Source of the DNA: a virus
Taxonomy: Duplodnaviria > Caudoviricetes
IMG/VR virus record: IMGVR_UViG_3300028175_000001
Length of the DNA stretch: 64,000 bases
Reading direction: 5' to 3' (one strand)
In this document: positions 1-12,045 of the stretch, one piece after another
Layout: the number at the start of each line of letters is the position of its first letter
Position numbering within the stretch: position 1 is the stretch's first letter
Translations under genes and position numbers: made by a program
Notes under the pieces: model-generated
Told to the model about the DNA's origin: nothing
The model's input: the letters and a program-made list of their open reading frames with translations, nothing else
The model's database searches: none

Positions 1-593
1 CCACCACTTTCATCTACCAAATATGCCTCGAATGAAACACCTTTGTATTTTTTCTGCAAAGACAAAAATGATGTTATGTTCGACTGTGCATCGTCATATA
101 ACCTAACTCTGGTATATTTACCCGTTTTCAAATATTTATTGAAAATAATTTTTTTGTTTTTTGCAGATGAACCAAGATTTAGGTTCCCCGCACGTTCAAC
201 ATAAACATCATCTATCGGAATTCCTTGTTTTCTAAATGTGTCGAGAAACTTCTTCTTGTCATCAAAGTCTGCTCTCGCCGTAACTATAATCATCTTCGCC
301 CCCTTTGCAATCACGTTTTTTGCGATTGCTTTCATTTTAGCGATCATGGGTTTGATGGGTTCGGACGTTTTCAGAAAATGTTCTGCGTCTCCAAACTCCC
401 CAAAATCAAACTCTTCTCCGTCTTTCAGTTTATAGCTATTAAACTCTTGGTTGTTTAATTTTCGAGCCACTCTACCATCCTTTTTAACCAAGATGTTAGC
501 GGTAGTCTTGAATAAAGTCTCGTCTATATCGAAAATGGTCAGTCCTATTCCTTCTTGAACTTTTTCTAAAACGTATTCTTTGAATGTTTTCAT
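1..593 (-). CDS. HAD-superfamily phosphatase (PNKP-phosphatase-like) with N-terminal capsid-targeting-like peptide; 3' end runs off the window
   Basis: Manual translation from ATG 593: MKTFKEYVLEKVQEGIGLTIFDIDETLF...VTAR...AKNKK...LYDD, containing HAD motifs I (DxD), II (T), III (K) and IV (DD); no stop before base 1. Confidence 0.8.
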   Translation of the reverse strand, partial: MKTFKEYVLEKVQEGIGLTIFDIDETLFKTTANILVKKDGRVARKLNNQEFNSYKLKDGEEFDFGEFGDAEHFLKTSEPIKPMIAKMKAIAKNVIAKGAKMIIVTARADFDDKKKFLDTFRKQGIPIDDVYVERAGNLNLGSSAKNKKIIFNKYLKTGKYTRVRLYDDAQSNITSFLSLQKKYKGVSFEAYLVDESG

Positions 594-1177: not shown

Positions 1178-1447
1178 TCAATCAAATGCACTAGGTGTTT
1201 TGACCCTCACCCACGGGCCTCGTCTGAATATCCTCGCAGGAATTGCGACTTCTTTTCCTATTGGATGTGTTTTCCAATATTTTTTATCTATACCAACAAT
1301 TCTCGTCAGGAAAGTGTTGTTCTTATTATCAGTCCCATACAGTTCAACTTCAACATCTACTTTCTGTCCGTCGATTTTTAATCCACCAATCCCCTTGAAA
1401 ATACCTTTCTTTATCTCGTTCAATACATGTTCTTTAAATGTTTTCAT
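1178..1447 (-). CDS. Small hypothetical protein starting MKTFKEHVLNE (putative internal head protein)
   Basis: ORF track; N-terminus resembles the T4 internal-protein targeting sequence. Confidence 0.65.
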   Translation of the reverse strand: MKTFKEHVLNEIKKGIFKGIGGLKIDGQKVDVEVELYGTDNKNNTFLTRIVGIDKKYWKTHPIGKEVAIPARIFRRGPWVRVKTPSAFD

Positions 1448-1938
1448 TATGTTCCGTCCTTAGTGGTCATAGAACTCTTAAAGTCCCATTTGTAAAAACT
1501 AACGTCTCCGCCAACAGTAAATCCGTTTGCTTCTTCGCCTTCTTTTTCGTTCTCGCCGTCCATATCACCCTTTTCGGAATCGACTTCTAACATCATGTAC
1601 TCACCTTTTTCTGCCTCTCCTTTGACACCTTCTAATGATTTGTGAGTTTCTTTTGAATAGGGTAGTTGATAATTGGTCGGAACATTATCCATATTCGCCA
1701 CCCACAAATAAATCCATTTGGGTTCATCTACGTAATGAGAAAGATACAACCCCTTTTCAGGAATACTCATTCTCGGTTGCCCCAAAAGTGAAGTATATGT
1801 TTCGTGGAGAGAAATAGTAAAAAAGAGAAATAATGGAATGAACCAAATCAAGAACTTCGGACTCTTCCTTCTGTCTATTAAAATCCACAGACACACCACT
1901 GCAAAAATAATCAAACCCAAAAATAAAAGAACTATCAT
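1447..1938 (-). CDS. Membrane-anchored protein, third gene of the ExbB/ExbD-like cassette
   Basis: Two N-terminal hydrophobic segments followed by an acidic soluble domain; start overlaps the upstream stop by 4 bp. Confidence 0.7.
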   Translation of the reverse strand: MIVLLFLGLIIFAVVCLWILIDRRKSPKFLIWFIPLFLFFTISLHETYTSLLGQPRMSIPEKGLYLSHYVDEPKWIYLWVANMDNVPTNYQLPYSKETHKSLEGVKGEAEKGEYMMLEVDSEKGDMDGENEKEGEEANGFTVGGDVSFYKWDFKSSMTTKDGT

Positions 1939-2648
1939 GGTGAATCCCGTTCTTCTCTACTGTTTCCATAGAAATTACCCATAGAACCAAGAGGTGAGAC
2001 AAACTTTTTCTTTTCAAATGTTACAGGAGAAATAAATCTACCGTCTTGGTCTATTGAAAATCGAACAAATGTTTCCTCTTGACCCTTTTTGAAAAACTTC
2101 TTCTCACCTTCCCAAATCAACCGATATGGGTTGACCTTATGTACTTCTATTCTAACCATAAGTGATTTCTTTGGTGTGAATTTTTTCTTTTGAATAGCGG
2201 GTTGTTTTCCGCTATTGGGTAAAATCATTGTAGAAGACTTCCCCTTCGAATAATAATGTGCGTTCACTATATATTCCCCTTTAGTGATTCCTCTGATAGT
2301 CACCACTTCTCTATTGAGTGCAACCGATGATGTGACACCACCTACAACAATTTGATCGTTTCTGTTGCCCAAATCATCTTTGTCGAGGTGCATGAAATTG
2401 CCTACCGTTCTTCTGAAAGAAACCCGCATTCCCAATGGATCTTCTACATAAAGATCAATATCGTCAGGTGCATCGTGGTTCCATTCCATGATGATAATGA
2501 ACTCTGCTTTTCGTTCAAAATCTTCTTTCTTGGCTTCGGGTTTAATCAATAAAAAGGCTATCATAAACAAAAAAGCAAATCCTACCAAAATGTTGAATAA
2601 CATATCGGTGAACCCGACCGATGATTTATATTTAGAATTGCTGTCCAT
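1935..2648 (-). CDS. MotB/ExbD-like single-TM protein with a YfaP/DUF2135-like soluble domain
   Basis: GFTDMLFNILVGFAFLFMIAFLL is a TM helix with an Asp positioned like ExbD/MotB; DIDLYVEDP and LDKDDLG motifs follow. Confidence 0.6.
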   Translation of the reverse strand: MDSNSKYKSSVGFTDMLFNILVGFAFLFMIAFLLIKPEAKKEDFERKAEFIIIMEWNHDAPDDIDLYVEDPLGMRVSFRRTVGNFMHLDKDDLGNRNDQIVVGGVTSSVALNREVVTIRGITKGEYIVNAHYYSKGKSSTMILPNSGKQPAIQKKKFTPKKSLMVRIEVHKVNPYRLIWEGEKKFFKKGQEETFVRFSIDQDGRFISPVTFEKKKFVSPLGSMGNFYGNSREERDSP

Positions 2649-3109
2649 TAATTACCCGATTCAAAATTTATTAATTGAACTTTTAGTATCAAAGAACAAA
2701 CTAAACCCGTGAGAGTAGTCCAAAGTGCAGTACTCATTCCAATTGCCATGTCAGAGAGAGCTTGTTGAAGTGTAACCGAATTAGTAACATCAATATTAGC
2801 AAAAGCTGTACCTAACATTAAAAGAAACCCTGTAACAGTACCGATCATTCCAAGTACAAGACACGCTTCGGCAATAAACCATCCAACTTCAATTGTTTTA
2901 TCTACGATTGAAGTTTTTTCTAAATCATAAGTTTTTCTTCCAATCCAAAGGGAAGTACTCACAAAAATGATAATAATCAAAAAACTAAGTTTAGTTGCAT
3001 CTGCATAATATAGAATTGGATGTAAATTATAATAATATGTTGTTCCAAAACCCAAAAGTATTAAACAAAATATTAACCACCATTTTAAAAGTTTTCTTCC
3101 TATTTTCAT
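2648..3109 (-). CDS. MotA/TolQ/ExbB proton-channel family protein
   Basis: LGMIGTVTG and GMSTALWTTLTGL match the two conserved ExbB/TolQ TM motifs; about 4 TM segments. Confidence 0.85.
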   Translation of the reverse strand: MKIGRKLLKWWLIFCLILLGFGTTYYYNLHPILYYADATKLSFLIIIIFVSTSLWIGRKTYDLEKTSIVDKTIEVGWFIAEACLVLGMIGTVTGFLLMLGTAFANIDVTNSVTLQQALSDMAIGMSTALWTTLTGLVCSLILKVQLINFESGN

Positions 3110-3223
3110 TTTTAGCCTCTAATAAAATTACTTAAAGTGAATCTTTTTCTTTCAAAATATCACTATTATATAAAACCATTCTTATATTTATTTTATTGCA
3201 AAGGTGTACATTTGAGGCCTTTT

Positions 3224-4590: not shown

Positions 4591-5370
4591 TTATTGTTTT
4601 TTATTCTTCCTATCTAAGGCAAGTTGTACTCCTACAACAAACTTTTTACTTGCTATTTTATATTTATTGGGTGCATATTTTTTTAATAGTCCAAAAAATT
4701 TAGACTGGTCTATATGTTTTTGTAATGAACTATTGACACTTCTGATAGCTAAAAACTCGCCTATTTCAGACATTATTGTAGGATCAAATTCTTTTTGTGA
4801 AGTATAATATTCTATTTCATTTTCGGGGTTTCCTGTTTGAACTTGTTTTTCTGATTTATTTGAAAGAAAAACGTCTTGAACATAATGCATTAATTCATGT
4901 TTCAAGTCTGATTGCATTCTTACGAGGATTTGTTCAACATTCAATATTATGTCATTTTCATTATCTGCATTATGTGCTTCTTTTACGTAATTGGAAACAT
5001 AAAACGTAATTGCGGGATTACCTGTTTTTACGTGTTCTGTGTCATAATAAGAATTATAACTTGCTGGTTTGTTATCATAAATTAAGAATAATGTAATATC
5101 ATCATTTTGGTCAACGTCCCAATCTGGATAAGGCATATCTTGATGGGGGTTTTTATATACTACATCTGTTTTTGTGGTGGGTCTAATAAAATGTTTTATT
5201 CCATGTTTTCTTGCAAGTTTTTTAATTGTAGTAGAAAAACTATACATTCCAATTTCATTTATCATATGCGAAAAAGCAAATGTAAATAAAGTGGTCTCGA
5301 ATTGTTTATATATCTTGGGGGGTATCTGTACTAATCCCTCGCTCAAAGCAAAATTTTGAAATGTCTTCAT
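4591..5370 (-). CDS. HExxH zincin-like protein with capsid-targeting-like N-terminus
   Basis: Starts MKTFQNFALSE; contains DLKHELMHYVQD; TATAAATA late promoter upstream. Confidence 0.65.
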   Translation of the reverse strand: MKTFQNFALSEGLVQIPPKIYKQFETTLFTFAFSHMINEIGMYSFSTTIKKLARKHGIKHFIRPTTKTDVVYKNPHQDMPYPDWDVDQNDDITLFLIYDNKPASYNSYYDTEHVKTGNPAITFYVSNYVKEAHNADNENDIILNVEQILVRMQSDLKHELMHYVQDVFLSNKSEKQVQTGNPENEIEYYTSQKEFDPTIMSEIGEFLAIRSVNSSLQKHIDQSKFFGLLKKYAPNKYKIASKKFVVGVQLALDRKNKKQ

Positions 5371-10976: not shown

Positions 10977-11316
10977 TTTCCTCAATACGTTCATACATGA
11001 ATGATGTCCTACAGCCGCATGTTCCTTTTGCTGAAGGATTGTTAAATTTTAATCCACGATCATTTAAATTATCCGACCAATCAATTTCTGTATCTCTAAT
11101 ATATAAATGACTTTTTTTATCTACTAAAATGTTTAATCCAAAAGATTCAAACTCTAAATCAAATTTCCCTTTACGGCTTTCAAAATCTACTGTATAAGTA
11201 AATCCTGAACACCCGCCACCTTTAACGCCTACTCGCACTACTGTACCTTCAGAAACTTTCTGATCTTGCATTATACCCAATACTTTATTAGCGGCTTTTT
11301 CTGTAAACGATATCAT
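10951..11316 (-). CDS. iscA: A-type Fe-S carrier (IscA/ErpA family)
   Basis: GVKGGGCSGFTY, FNNPSAKGTCGCRTSF. Confidence 0.9.
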   Translation of the reverse strand: MISFTEKAANKVLGIMQDQKVSEGTVVRVGVKGGGCSGFTYTVDFESRKGKFDLEFESFGLNILVDKKSHLYIRDTEIDWSDNLNDRGLKFNNPSAKGTCGCRTSFMYERIEENEHKPSWM

Positions 11317-11319
11317 ATT

Positions 11320-11509
11320 CCCTTAATTTGTGTAATTGATTGTTTCTGTTTCAAGGCACAATCATAAGCCCACTCCAACACTAAGCGGCCAATGCTACCT
11401 GTGCGGAAAAATAATCGTCATTGTTTGCGATTAAGTTAAATGACATTTTACATCTGTCAAGATGGTCTCCTCTGCATAATCACATTCAATCGAATTCCCG
11501 AACACCCCC
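11320..11509 (-). ncRNA. ssrA: tmRNA coding piece of a permuted two-piece gene; tag ANNDDYFSAQVALAA* at 11428..11381
   Basis: 5' GGGGGTGTTCGGGAATTCGAT at 11509; resume codon GCA; tag ends in ALAA-stop; 3' boundary approximate. Confidence 0.85.
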
Positions 11510-11513
11510 AACA

Positions 11514-11606
11514 TTAAGTCATCAAAGTCCAGTCTAGAACAAAATATAATCCCATCATAATCGATATTATAAAAACCCACAATAACAAAGTAGGATTATC
11601 ATTCAT
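11514..11606 (-). CDS. 30-aa hydrophobic peptide inside the tmRNA intervening segment
   Basis: MNDNPTLLLWVFIISIMMGLYFVLDWTLMT*; no strong SD visible. Confidence 0.4.
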   Translation of the reverse strand: MNDNPTLLLWVFIISIMMGLYFVLDWTLMT

Positions 11607-11615
11607 ATGGCTCAT

Positions 11616-11675
<60 letters not shown>

Positions 11676-11679
11676 ACAT

Positions 11680-12045
11680 CTATTTAGATAAGTCTTGAGT
11701 CACATCTTTAATTTTTTCTATTTGTTTAGTAATAATTTCTTCCCGTTTTGGCCAATAAATATAATCTTTATCTGGATTTTTCATAAGATTATATAAAAGA
11801 GGTAAAATTAATTGCTCAACTTTGCCCATATCTACTATATATTTTTCTTCTAAATATTCTTTTTTATAACTAATTTCTTTAATTGCGGAATCTATTTTCT
11901 TTTCTAAATTTGCAAAACTTTGAGATTTTGCTTGAACCTCAACTATTTTCTTTTCTACTTCTGTTGTTTTTGCTTTATATTCTTCATCATTTACTGCGGA
12001 AAAACCGAAGTCATAACTATCATATTCATCAGGTATTATTGCCAT
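11680..12045 (-). CDS. Hypothetical protein of marine T4-like phages
   Basis: DYDFGFSAVNDEEY-type N-terminus and LYNLMKNPDKDYIYWP; start trimmed. Confidence 0.7.
   Translation of the reverse strand: MAIIPDEYDSYDFGFSAVNDEEYKAKTTEVEKKIVEVQAKSQSFANLEKKIDSAIKEISYKKEYLEEKYIVDMGKVEQLILPLLYNLMKNPDKDYIYWPKREEIITKQIEKIKDVTQDLSK

What the first reader, a model, noticed from the sequence alone, without database searches (positions are those of the whole stretch)
1447..3109. Phage-encoded MotA/ExbB plus MotB/ExbD-like ion-motor cassette with a third membrane gene
Seen: three overlapping, translationally coupled genes. The first is a channel subunit keeping the Thr-containing motifs LGMIGTVTG and GMSTALWTTLTGL. 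The second has a single TM with Asp (GFTDMLFN) and a YfaP-like soluble domain instead of an OmpA peptidoglycan-binding domain. The third is a membrane-anchored acidic protein. Known: MotAB, ExbBD, TolQR and ZorAB are 5:2 PMF-driven motors. Inference: the phage installs its own motor for superinfection exclusion, jamming of host Ton/Tol/Zorya systems, PMF sensing or nutrient uptake.
Basis: partly seen in the sequence, partly recalled or inferred. Interest (0 to 1): 0.75.

Follow-up and report, generated by a model that had tools for sequence, protein, structure and literature searches.

The report
Phage-borne minimal MotA-type motor trio
An abundant marine T4-like phage carries three tightly coupled membrane genes that look like a stripped-down relative of the ion-driven motors behind flagella and Ton/Tol transport, with two partner proteins of an undescribed type. 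Many phages and some bacteria keep the trio together as a unit, but what it does during infection is unknown.

Summary
Three overlapping minus-strand genes lie at 1447-3109.

- **g1 (153 aa)** is a minimal four-helix MotA/TolQ/ExbB-family protein (Pfam 31 bits, cut-off 22.9). It has invariant channel threonines and no cytoplasmic domain.
- **g2 (237 aa)** has one membrane helix with an Asp that is invariant in 82 diverse relatives. Its periplasmic part is a beta-sandwich (model pLDDT 85) of DUF2135/TerD type, not an ExbD or OmpA domain.
- **g3 (163 aa)** has a two-helix anchor, a small periplasmic domain, a variable acidic linker and a conserved C-terminal FY motif.

The trio stays together, in the same order, in every one of about 60 phage loci that reaches far enough, while its flanks vary. 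All three genes are under purifying selection (dN/dS 0.08-0.37). It also occurs in Rhizobium phages and, with a larger A subunit, twice on an Azospirillum chromid.

Best reading (0.6): a self-contained ion-driven 5:2-type motor that does work in the periplasm, with g3 as a TonB/TolA-like arm. Stoichiometry, ion, target and biological role are untested. I found no paper describing it. This scan has noted the same trio many times on other DNA.

The parts
3185..3192 (-). AATAAATA, a match to the T4-type late-promoter consensus (NATAAATA), 83 nt upstream of the g1 start
   Evidence: Read from the sequence. A [ACGT]ATAAATA motif lies within 160 nt upstream of g1 in 6 of 26 loci examined, against about 0.75 expected from the background frequency. 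Function as a promoter is inferred, not shown. The sigma-70 scan found no more sites than in shuffles.
3116..3120 (-). AGAGG ribosome-binding site, 6 nt before the g1 ATG
   Evidence: Read from the sequence.
2648..3109 (-). g1: 153-aa minimal MotA/TolQ/ExbB-family subunit (A subunit). It has four predicted membrane helices, a cytoplasmic loop of only about 16 residues and no cytoplasmic tail.
   Evidence: Pfam PF01618 E 2.2e-7, 31.1 bits against 22.9. All 120 listed homologues carry PF01618. Invariant residues are W10 W11 D37 T39 G87 G90 T91 G94 G124 T127 T131 T132 G135 Q145.
2828..2854 (-). g1 motif LGMIGTVTG (residues 86-94, helix 3) with invariant Thr91
   Evidence: Alignment A3. The Pfam match covers residues 78-144. 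Equivalence to ExbB T148 / TolQ T145 is recalled from knowledge of those families and was not aligned here.
2702..2740 (-). g1 motif GMSTALWTTLTGL (residues 124-136, helix 4) with invariant Thr127, Thr131 and Thr132
   Evidence: Alignment A3.
1935..2648 (-). g2: 237-aa B-type subunit. It has a cytoplasmic N-terminus, one membrane helix (residues 10-34), a conserved basic linker LIKPEAKK and a periplasmic beta-sandwich (48-210) with a variable basic loop (135-162) and tail.
   Evidence: AlphaFold model m90a631692a7e, pLDDT 85. The family has 1,572 clusters at 50% identity. There is no Pfam, NCBIfam, PHROG or PADLOC family.
2604..2606 (-). Codon of g2 Asp15, the membrane-embedded acidic residue near the cytoplasmic end of the helix
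   Evidence: Invariant in alignments A1 (19 sequences) and A2 (82 sequences, down to 30% identity). Also present in the Rhizobium phage N34 and Azospirillum homologues.
2019..2507 (-). g2 periplasmic beta-sandwich of DUF2135 / TerD / PPC type with an invariant acidic cluster (D63, D65, D91, E114; D92 and D98 nearly invariant). It is a probable Ca2+ site.
   Evidence: Fold matches: AFDB DUF2135 proteins (E 1e-10 to 1e-6); Atlas DUF2135 clusters; TerD 2qz7 Z 9.4 and 2kxt Z 9.0; calcium-bound 2lge Z 6.0; the Tk-SP jelly-roll at 24% identity. Ca2+ binding is inferred from the analogues, not tested.
1447..1938 (-). g3: 163-aa third subunit. It has a two-helix membrane hairpin (residues 2-45), a conserved periplasmic domain (about 50-112, IYLW...P...Y core), a variable acidic linker (113-137) and a conserved C-terminal GG(D)xxFYxW motif (139-153, Tyr149 invariant).
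   Evidence: Alignment A4 and hydropathy. 420 homologues. Profile matches to the third gene of Rhizobium phage N34 (E 7e-7), phage 16-3 p042 (E 3e-6) and Azospirillum (E 1e-6). No Pfam family.

Best explanation
The three genes encode one self-contained inner-membrane machine of the MotA/ExbB '5:2' ion-motor kind, made in the infected cell.

- **g1** would form the ring: five copies by analogy, entirely membrane-embedded because it has no cytoplasmic domain.
- **g2** would be the central pair. Its membrane Asp15 takes up and releases the coupling ion (H+, or possibly Na+ in a marine host). Each g2 carries a probably Ca2+-binding DUF2135/TerD-type beta-sandwich that sits just above the ring on a short basic linker.
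- **g3** would dock on the ring with its two-helix hairpin. It would carry the movement into the periplasm through a small domain, a flexible acidic spacer and a conserved aromatic C-terminal motif. In function, though not in descent, that is the role of TonB or TolA.

The output is therefore work on an envelope component in the periplasm, not torque on a cytoplasmic rotor and not a signal into the cytoplasm. In the window and its nearest relatives a T4-type late-promoter motif precedes g1, which suggests action late in infection.

**Shown here:** family membership of g1, the invariant Asp, the fold of the g2 head, the conservation of the trio as a unit, and purifying selection.

**Inferred:** stoichiometry, ion, rotation, g3's role as transducer, Ca2+ binding, timing, and the target.
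For: **g1.**
- It passes Pfam's MotA_ExbB threshold, and every listed homologue carries PF01618.
- Thr91, Thr127, Thr131 and Thr132 and the Gly motifs of helices 3 and 4 are invariant.

**g2.**
- It has the B-subunit layout: a short basic N-terminus and one helix with Asp15 near its cytoplasmic end, invariant in 82 sequences down to 30% identity.
- One family member weakly hits Pfam ExbD (E 0.005).
- The head is a confident beta-sandwich (pLDDT 85). It matches DUF2135 models, TerD (Z 9.4 and 9.0) and calcium-binding sandwiches. It carries an invariant acidic cluster.

**The trio as a unit.**
- The order g1-g2-g3 holds in all viral loci long enough to show it: 61, 58 and 51 loci for g2, g1 and g3. 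No flanking gene family is shared by more than 11 loci.
- This includes a 332-kb jumbo-phage contig and other T4-like lineages.
- It also includes Rhizobium phages N34, N3_19 and 16-3.
- Two complete trios lie on an Azospirillum chromid with the same ATGA coupling.

**Selection and timing.**
- dN/dS is 0.08-0.37 for each gene in independent pairs.
- The start/stop overlaps imply co-translation in fixed ratios.
- A late-promoter motif is enriched upstream of g1 (6 of 26 loci against about 0.75 expected).

**Framework.** The three-part layout parallels ExbB-ExbD-TonB and TolQ-TolR-TolA. This rests on established knowledge of those systems. PMC12505986 supplies the 'generic ion transporter' class.
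Against: - No assembly, ion flux or movement has been tested.
- The g1 profile finds no solved MotA, ExbB or TolQ chain by sequence. Its matches to specific subfamilies (ZorA, TolQ, MotA) are far below their cut-offs. It is therefore an outlier, and its stoichiometry could differ.
- g3 has no TonB or TolA signature and no recognised family. Its role as transducer rests only on position, topology and conservation.
- The linker between the g2 helix and its head is only about 12 residues. The head probably cannot reach the cell wall, which weakens a simple 'anchored stator' picture.
- The late-promoter motif is absent in 20 of 26 loci, where g1 simply follows another gene.
- No target and no conserved neighbour gives a clue to function.
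Confidence: 0.6

Rival explanations
1. The trio is a gated ion channel, or a sensor of membrane potential, rather than a motor. g1 and g2 would conduct protons or sodium, and the g2 head and g3 would act as a plug or regulator. The phage would use it late in infection to set or read the membrane potential, for example to time holin triggering and lysis, with no mechanical output.
For: g1 has no cytoplasmic or periplasmic domain on which to exert force. The g2 head sits on a very short, conserved basic linker (LIKPEAKK) directly over the channel mouth, like a plug. A late-promoter motif lies upstream in the closest relatives. Phage lysis timing is known to depend on membrane potential (established knowledge of holins).
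Against: Chromosomal trios exist in Azospirillum next to housekeeping genes, so the function is not specific to lysis. Three strictly co-inherited proteins with two conserved periplasmic domains are more than a leak or sensor needs. No holin, endolysin or spanin gene is consistently adjacent.
Confidence: 0.15
2. The trio is a phage-versus-phage or phage-versus-host weapon. It would use ion-motive force to block entry of superinfecting phage DNA through the periplasm. Alternatively it would compete with or disable the host's own Tol, Ton or Zorya motors.
For: It is an accessory gene set. It is absent from the cultured relatives HTVC008M, Mosig and Melnitz by tblastn. It sits in variable genome regions and shows recombination inside the cassette, as is common for exclusion and counter-defence genes. 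g1 gives weak matches to ZorA models. The TerD fold of g2 belongs to a family linked to phage and colicin resistance (recalled knowledge of the ter operon).
Against: The ZorA matches are far below threshold, and g1 lacks the long ZorA tail. The always-complete trio suggests an autonomous machine, not a poison subunit. T4 exclusion genes are early genes (recalled knowledge), whereas here the only promoter-like motif is of late type. The same trio lies in bacterial chromosomes outside obvious prophages.
Confidence: 0.15
3. The genes are a passenger: a host operon picked up by the phage and not used, or three unrelated small membrane proteins that only happen to lie together.
For: None beyond the lack of any known function.
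Against: dN/dS is 0.08-0.37 in all three genes. Order and coupling are conserved down to 36% identity and across unrelated phage types. There are thousands of environmental homologues.
Confidence: 0.02

Closest known systems
ExbB-ExbD-TonB (Ton) and TolQ-TolR-TolA (Tol-Pal) motors
   Same: Three adjacent genes: a PF01618 channel subunit, a single-pass partner with a membrane Asp, and a third membrane-anchored protein that extends into the periplasm through a low-complexity spacer. There is no flagellar rotor, so the output would be periplasmic.
   Different: g1 is about 80-90 residues shorter than ExbB or TolQ. It has four predicted helices with the N-terminus inside (MotA-like topology) and essentially no cytoplasmic domain. 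g2 has a DUF2135/TerD-type beta-sandwich instead of the ExbD/TolR fold (no Pfam ExbD hit). g3 has two helices and no TonB/TolA domain or recognised family. No outer-membrane partner genes are present. The trio is carried by phages.
Flagellar stators MotAB / PomAB
   Same: Same Pfam family for the A subunit, the same predicted four-helix topology, and Asp in the B-subunit helix near the cytoplasmic side.
   Different: There is no torque-generating cytoplasmic interface: the loop is about 16 residues, whereas the flagellar clade is defined by an interface of at least 4 helices (PMC12505986). There is no plug-plus-long-linker and no OmpA-like peptidoglycan-binding domain in g2. There is no flagellar context.
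Zorya ZorA-ZorB anti-phage motor
   Same: A non-flagellar MotA/ExbB-type pair linked to phage biology. The best subfamily-level hits of g1 are ZorA models.
   Different: Those hits score 12-18 bits, against a 500-bit NCBIfam cut-off. g1 lacks the long cytoplasmic ZorA tail. There are no ZorC, ZorD or ZorE genes. The trio is encoded by the phage, not the host.
'Generic ion transporters' (non-flagellar MotAB relatives) of PMC12505986
   Same: That paper defines a heterogeneous non-flagellar clade with condensed cytoplasmic domains and members of unknown function. This trio fits the class description.
   Different: The paper sampled bacterial genomes only. It describes condensed cytoplasmic domains of two or three helices and does not mention DUF2135 or any phage-borne member ('phage' occurs three times in the text and 'DUF2135' not at all; the passages shown concern Zorya phage defence). 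Here the cytoplasmic domain is essentially absent.
DUF2135 (YfaP-type) / TerD / PPC beta-sandwich domains
   Same: The fold of g2 residues 48-210. It shares the W...D-[IL]-D-L-[YW]-V-x-D-P-x-G strand motif with the Tk-SP jelly-roll and has acidic clusters like those at the Ca2+ sites of TerD and Tk-SP.
   Different: The window protein reaches no Pfam threshold. Only 1 of 82 relatives hits DUF2135, at E 0.002. None of the known members is described as the head of a MotB/ExbD-type anchor.

Membership tests
MotA/TolQ/ExbB proton-channel family (PF01618), for g1 | Profile match above the curated threshold | tested here: met
   31.1 bits against 22.9, E 2.2e-7. All 120 listed homologues carry PF01618.
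MotA/TolQ/ExbB proton-channel family (PF01618), for g1 | Conserved polar (Thr) and Gly residues in the last two membrane helices | tested here: met
   T91, T127, T131, T132, G87, G90, G94, G124 and G135 are invariant in 24 sequences.
MotA/TolQ/ExbB proton-channel family (PF01618), for g1 | Adjacent gene for a single-pass partner with a membrane Asp | tested here: met
   g2 overlaps g1 by 1 nt. Asp15 is invariant.
5:2 rotary motors (A5B2 assembly) | Pentameric ring around a dimer of B helices | not testable with these tools
   Seven chains exceed the six-chain limit of the complex predictor. No experimental data.
ExbD/TolR family (PF02472), for g2 | N-terminal single helix with conserved Asp | tested here: met
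   Model helix 10-34 with Asp15.
ExbD/TolR family (PF02472), for g2 | ExbD/TolR-type periplasmic domain or profile match | tested here: not met
   No Pfam hit at E <= 1. Only 1 of 82 relatives hits, at E 0.005. The domain is a beta-sandwich of another fold.
MotB / OmpA-like stator anchor, for g2 | C-terminal OmpA-like peptidoglycan-binding domain | tested here: not met
   No OmpA hit. The fold is DUF2135/TerD-like.
DUF2135 (PF09906, YfaP type), for the g2 head | Profile match | tested here: inconclusive
   No hit for the window protein. One of 82 relatives hits at E 0.0021.
DUF2135 (PF09906, YfaP type), for the g2 head | Same fold as DUF2135 models | tested here: met
   The AFDB top hits are DUF2135 proteins, E 1e-10 to 1e-6. 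Atlas DUF2135 clusters match at TM 0.46-0.52 by the model, with rmsd 1.9-2.6 over 116-140 aligned residues.
TerD family, for the g2 head | TerD fold | tested here: met
   2qz7_B Z 9.4 (126 aligned, rmsd 3.8) and 2kxt Z 9.0 (138 aligned, rmsd 5.3). The next unrelated rows are at Z 6 or below. There is no sequence-level match, so this is fold likeness only.
TonB / TolA transducers, for g3 | Single N-terminal helix with the SHLS-type motif, Pro-rich or helical spacer, and a TonB_C or TolA C-terminal domain | tested here: not met
   g3 has two helices and no His-bearing motif in them. It has no Pfam or solved-structure match. Only the general layout (anchor, spacer, conserved C-terminus) is alike.
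Zorya (ZorAB plus effectors) | ZorA with a long cytoplasmic tail, ZorB with a peptidoglycan-binding domain, and ZorC/D or ZorE nearby | tested here: not met
   The best PADLOC ZorA hit is 17.7 bits. g2 and g3 have no PADLOC hit. g1 ends 5 residues after its last helix.
Flagellar stator clade (FIT of PMC12505986) | Torque-generating cytoplasmic interface of at least 4 helices | tested here: not met
   The loop between helices 2 and 3 is about 16 residues and variable.

The most novel reading that the evidence does not exclude
Tailed phages of several unrelated lineages carry their own ion-driven rotary motor. It would be the smallest known member of the MotA/ExbB class, with a calcium-binding beta-sandwich axle head and a new two-helix transducer. 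They would use it late in infection to do mechanical work on the host envelope, for example holding the outer layers together until release or helping to break them. That would be the first virus-encoded ion-motive-force motor and a fourth functional class beside flagellar, Ton/Tol/gliding and Zorya motors.
Probability: 0.4. Interest if true: 0.85.

Novelty: new variant of a known kind. Interest (0 to 1): 0.7.

Why it matters
Ion-driven 5:2 motors are known to power flagella, Ton uptake, Tol-Pal envelope maintenance, gliding and type 9 secretion, and Zorya defence.

This trio would add a minimal form that is almost entirely membrane-embedded, with two partner domains not seen in those systems. 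It is carried by viruses, including some of the most abundant phages in the ocean.

At 153 residues the A subunit is a natural 'core only' version of the motor. That makes it attractive for structural and mechanistic work on how ion flow is turned into movement.

For phage biology it points to an unrecognised energy-dependent step in the envelope of the infected cell. The same module in Alphaproteobacteria suggests an undescribed envelope function in cells too.

Genetically tractable carriers exist (Rhizobium phage 16-3 and T4-like Rhizobium phages), so the function can be tested directly.

Tried and rejected
**Searches and predictions that gave nothing**
- Complex prediction of g1 + g2 + g3 (one copy each, g3 as partner) gave no verdict: score 0.00, controls not run. 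This is neither support nor evidence against. A 5:2 assembly could not be submitted because of the six-chain limit.
- PHROGs had no family for any of the three proteins.
- PADLOC and NCBIfam gave only sub-threshold ZorA, TolQ and MotA hits for g1, and a sub-threshold STM3941 hit for the g3 hairpin.
- Sequence searches of solved structures with profiles of g1, g2 and g3 found nothing meaningful.
- The first g2 model, from 19 close sequences, was poor (pLDDT 61.6) and was replaced.
- Foldseek against the PDB gave no match at E <= 0.001; the best rows were TerD proteins. BFVD gave no informative annotated viral match.
- The Atlas feature search for g3 gave only a weak DUF4811 lead (0.77), which I did not use.

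**Leads that did not hold or could not be followed**
- I looked for domain fusions in ten unusually long g2 relatives and found none.
- No whole genome is held for this window, and no alphaproteobacterial genome handle could be obtained. A phage-versus-host phylogeny and a census in SAR11 genomes were therefore not possible.
- The single genome-contig hit is a contig end in a Marinimicrobia MAG, which may be mis-binned phage DNA.
- The sigma-70 promoter scan was no better than shuffles.

**Literature.** Searches for MotA/ExbB in phages, DUF2135/YfaP, PF01618 in viruses, TerD with ExbB, and the Rhizobium phages found no description of this trio.
Full report
**What is there.** On the minus strand the window holds three ORFs: 2648..3109 (g1, 153 aa), 1935..2648 (g2, 237 aa) and 1447..1938 (g3, 163 aa). 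The g1 stop and g2 start share one base (TAATG). g2 and g3 overlap as ATGA. A further TAATG links g3 to an unrelated 89-aa gene. An AGAGG ribosome-binding site precedes g1. An AATAAATA motif, a match to the T4-type late-promoter consensus, lies 83 nt upstream.

The window is a T4-like marine myophage. Its DNA polymerase, helicases, ribonucleotide reductase and major head protein give strong PHROG hits. The head protein is 64% identical to that of Pelagibacter phage HTVC008M.

**g1.** It passes the Pfam gathering score for MotA_ExbB (31.1 bits against 22.9), and all its listed homologues carry that family.

- Hydropathy gives four membrane helices.
- The loop between helices 2 and 3 is about 16 variable residues, and the protein ends just after helix 4. 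There is therefore no cytoplasmic domain at all.
- The Gly/Thr motifs of helices 3 and 4 are invariant (T91, T127, T131, T132). So are a KWWL motif at the start of helix 1 and a D37-x-T39 motif in the first periplasmic loop.
- Subfamily models (ZorA, TolQ, MotA) match only far below threshold.
- A profile of g1 finds no solved structure by sequence.

It is a distant, minimal member of the family.

**g2.** No library names it.

- A model built from 82 diverse relatives is confident (pLDDT 85). It shows a membrane helix (10-34), a short linker and a beta-sandwich (48-210).
- Asp15, near the cytoplasmic end of the helix, is invariant in all 82 sequences down to 30% identity. It is also present in the Rhizobium phage and Azospirillum homologues.
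- The sandwich matches DUF2135 models in AFDB and the ESM Atlas.
- Among solved structures it matches TerD best (Z 9.4 and 9.0), followed by calcium-binding sandwiches and the jelly-roll of the Tk-SP protease. It shares the D-L-D-L-Y-x-x-D-P-x-G strand with the Tk-SP jelly-roll.
- D63, D65, D91 and E114 are invariant, and D92 and D98 nearly so. I read this as a probable Ca2+ site (inference).

**g3.** It has two membrane helices with a basic loop between them. By the positive-inside rule this places the rest of the protein in the periplasm. After the helices come:

- a conserved core (IYLW...P...Y);
- an acidic spacer that varies in length and is missing in some relatives;
- a conserved C-terminal GG(D)xxFYxW motif with invariant Tyr149.

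No family or solved structure matches it. I could not fold it.

**The trio is a unit.**

- A scan of IMG/VR with the g2 alignment returned 50 loci at 36-94% identity. In every one that extends far enough, g1 lies directly upstream and g3 downstream.
- With further loci added, g2, g1 and g3 were found in 61, 58 and 51 loci. No flanking gene family occurs in more than 11.
- Carriers include a 332-kb contig that looks like a jumbo phage, and other T4-like lineages where hsp20 and clpS flank the trio.
- In the cultured-phage collection g2 is found only in Rhizobium phages. T4-like RHph_N34, the 68-kb RHph_N3_19 and the temperate siphovirus 16-3 each have a small PF01618 or g1-like gene before it and a g3-like gene after it.
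- HTVC008M, Mosig and Melnitz have no detectable copy. The trio is accessory.
- Unrelated genes can be inserted between g2 and g3, for example an OMP decarboxylase gene in L030.
- The family is large: 1,572 clusters at 50% identity for g2, and 1,715, 1,501 and 420 proteins for g2, g1 and g3 in the word-based search.

**Selection and mosaicism.** Pairwise dN/dS is 0.08-0.37 for all three genes in seven independent pairs. Against locus L005, nucleotide similarity starts abruptly inside g1, at the loop between helices 2 and 3 (window 2893). It then runs through g2 and g3. g3 is nearly identical (dS 0.007) while g2 has dS 0.5. Recombination therefore occurs within the cassette without breaking it.

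**Cellular relatives.** tblastn against plasmids found the g2 family on the roughly 2-Mb chromids of seven Azospirillum strains. One of these carries two complete trios in the same order.

- At the first locus the A subunit is 271 aa and passes PF01618. It aligns to g1 with an extra cytoplasmic insert.
- The B subunit aligns at E 1e-28, including the Asp and the acidic motifs.
- The third gene aligns at E 1e-6 and starts at an ATGA overlap.
- The neighbours are housekeeping-type genes: a PurU-like formyltransferase and an Amidase_3 gene.

The phage version is thus a miniature of a cellular module.

**How it most likely works.** By homology, g1 and g2 form the ion-conducting core of a 5:2-type motor, with Asp15 as the ion-carrying residue.

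- Because g1 has nothing outside the membrane, the output cannot be cytoplasmic. This excludes a flagellar-type or Zorya-type mode.
- What leaves the membrane are the g2 head and g3, both periplasmic.
- The closest working analogy is Ton/Tol: ring, axle and a third protein anchored at the ring that reaches into the periplasm through a flexible spacer.
- I rate this reading at 0.6: roughly 0.8 for 'g1 and g2 are a MotA/ExbB-type ion-conducting pair', and roughly 0.4 for 'g3 is the transducer arm'.
- The coupling ion (H+ or Na+), the stoichiometry, Ca2+ binding, late timing and the target are all inferred.

Rivals are a non-mechanical channel or sensor that sets lysis timing (0.15), an exclusion or counter-defence device (0.15), and a neutral passenger (0.02, contradicted by the selection data).

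**What is known.** The nearest published framework I found is the class of non-flagellar 'generic ion transporters' of PMC12505986. It notes members of unknown function but does not describe this trio, DUF2135 heads or phage carriers. My other literature searches found nothing.

Earlier notes of this scan describe the same trio on many other genomes, both phage and bacterial.

- Claims I re-tested here, and which held: the TerD/DUF2135 fold, the invariant Asp, phage and chromosomal occurrence, and the late box.
- Claims I could not test: occurrence in hundreds of species, and a copy in a SAR11-type genome.

**Limits.** The complex prediction gave no verdict. No genome is held for the window.

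Noticed in passing
window 11381-11677 (-): A permuted (two-piece) tmRNA gene: Rfam RF04321, 88.7 bits against a gathering score of 47. ARAGORN also calls a tmRNA at 11290-11708 with tag ANNDDYFSAQVALAA. From recalled knowledge, permuted tmRNAs are typical of Alphaproteobacteria and a few other groups. That fits a SAR11-type host and the alphaproteobacterial bias of the trio.
   Followed up: partly
window 3-593, 590-907, 1178-1447, 4591-5370 (all -): Four otherwise unrelated neighbouring ORFs begin with nearly the same peptide (MKTFKEYV, MKTFKEHV, MKTFKEHV, MKTFQNF). The 1178-1447 gene is coupled to g3 by a TAATG overlap but is not conserved with the trio in other loci. It has no Pfam family. 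Other notes on this window read the peptide as a capsid-targeting leader.
   Followed up: no
window 2893 (inside g1) versus L005:3756: There is a recombination breakpoint inside g1. The window and IMG/VR contig 3300037809_000212 share 93% nucleotide identity from the loop between helices 2 and 3 of g1 through g2 and g3. They share no detectable similarity upstream of that point. g3 is nearly identical (dS 0.007), while g2 has dS 0.5.
   Followed up: partly
L030:4588-5918 (also L031, L032; shorter gaps in L035, L037, L038): In some phages unrelated genes are inserted between g2 and g3. In L030 these are an OMP decarboxylase gene (Pfam E 6e-22) and an ORF with a phosphoribosyltransferase-like LIIDDVLTTGGS motif. 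The trio tolerates being split at that junction.
   Followed up: partly
L063-L065 (Azospirillum brasilense chromid NZ_CP059450.1, about 723-724 kb and 747-749 kb): Two complete paralogous trios lie about 24 kb apart on one chromid. The first sits between an Amidase_3 (cell-wall amidase) gene and a PurU-like gene.
   Followed up: partly
L004 / L066 (CATMBH010000039.1, a Marinimicrobia MAG, contig end): This was the only hit in the species-genome collection. It is a phage-type g1 plus the first 67 residues of g2 (79% identical) at the end of an 8.9-kb contig of a Marinimicrobia MAG. It could be mis-binned phage DNA or a hint at another host group.
   Followed up: no
L059:5899-9685, L061:6950-9453: In two other T4-like lineages the trio lies between an hsp20 gene (opposite strand) and a clpS gene, with ribosomal protein S21 and L33 genes nearby. 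In this window the hsp20 gene noted by another report lies about 36 kb away.
   Followed up: no
L003:1286-2185 (phage 16-3 p036), L002:6204-6429: Trypsin-like, probably periplasmic, serine protease genes lie within 1-3 kb of the trio in two Rhizobium phages. No such gene is near the trio in the window.
   Followed up: no
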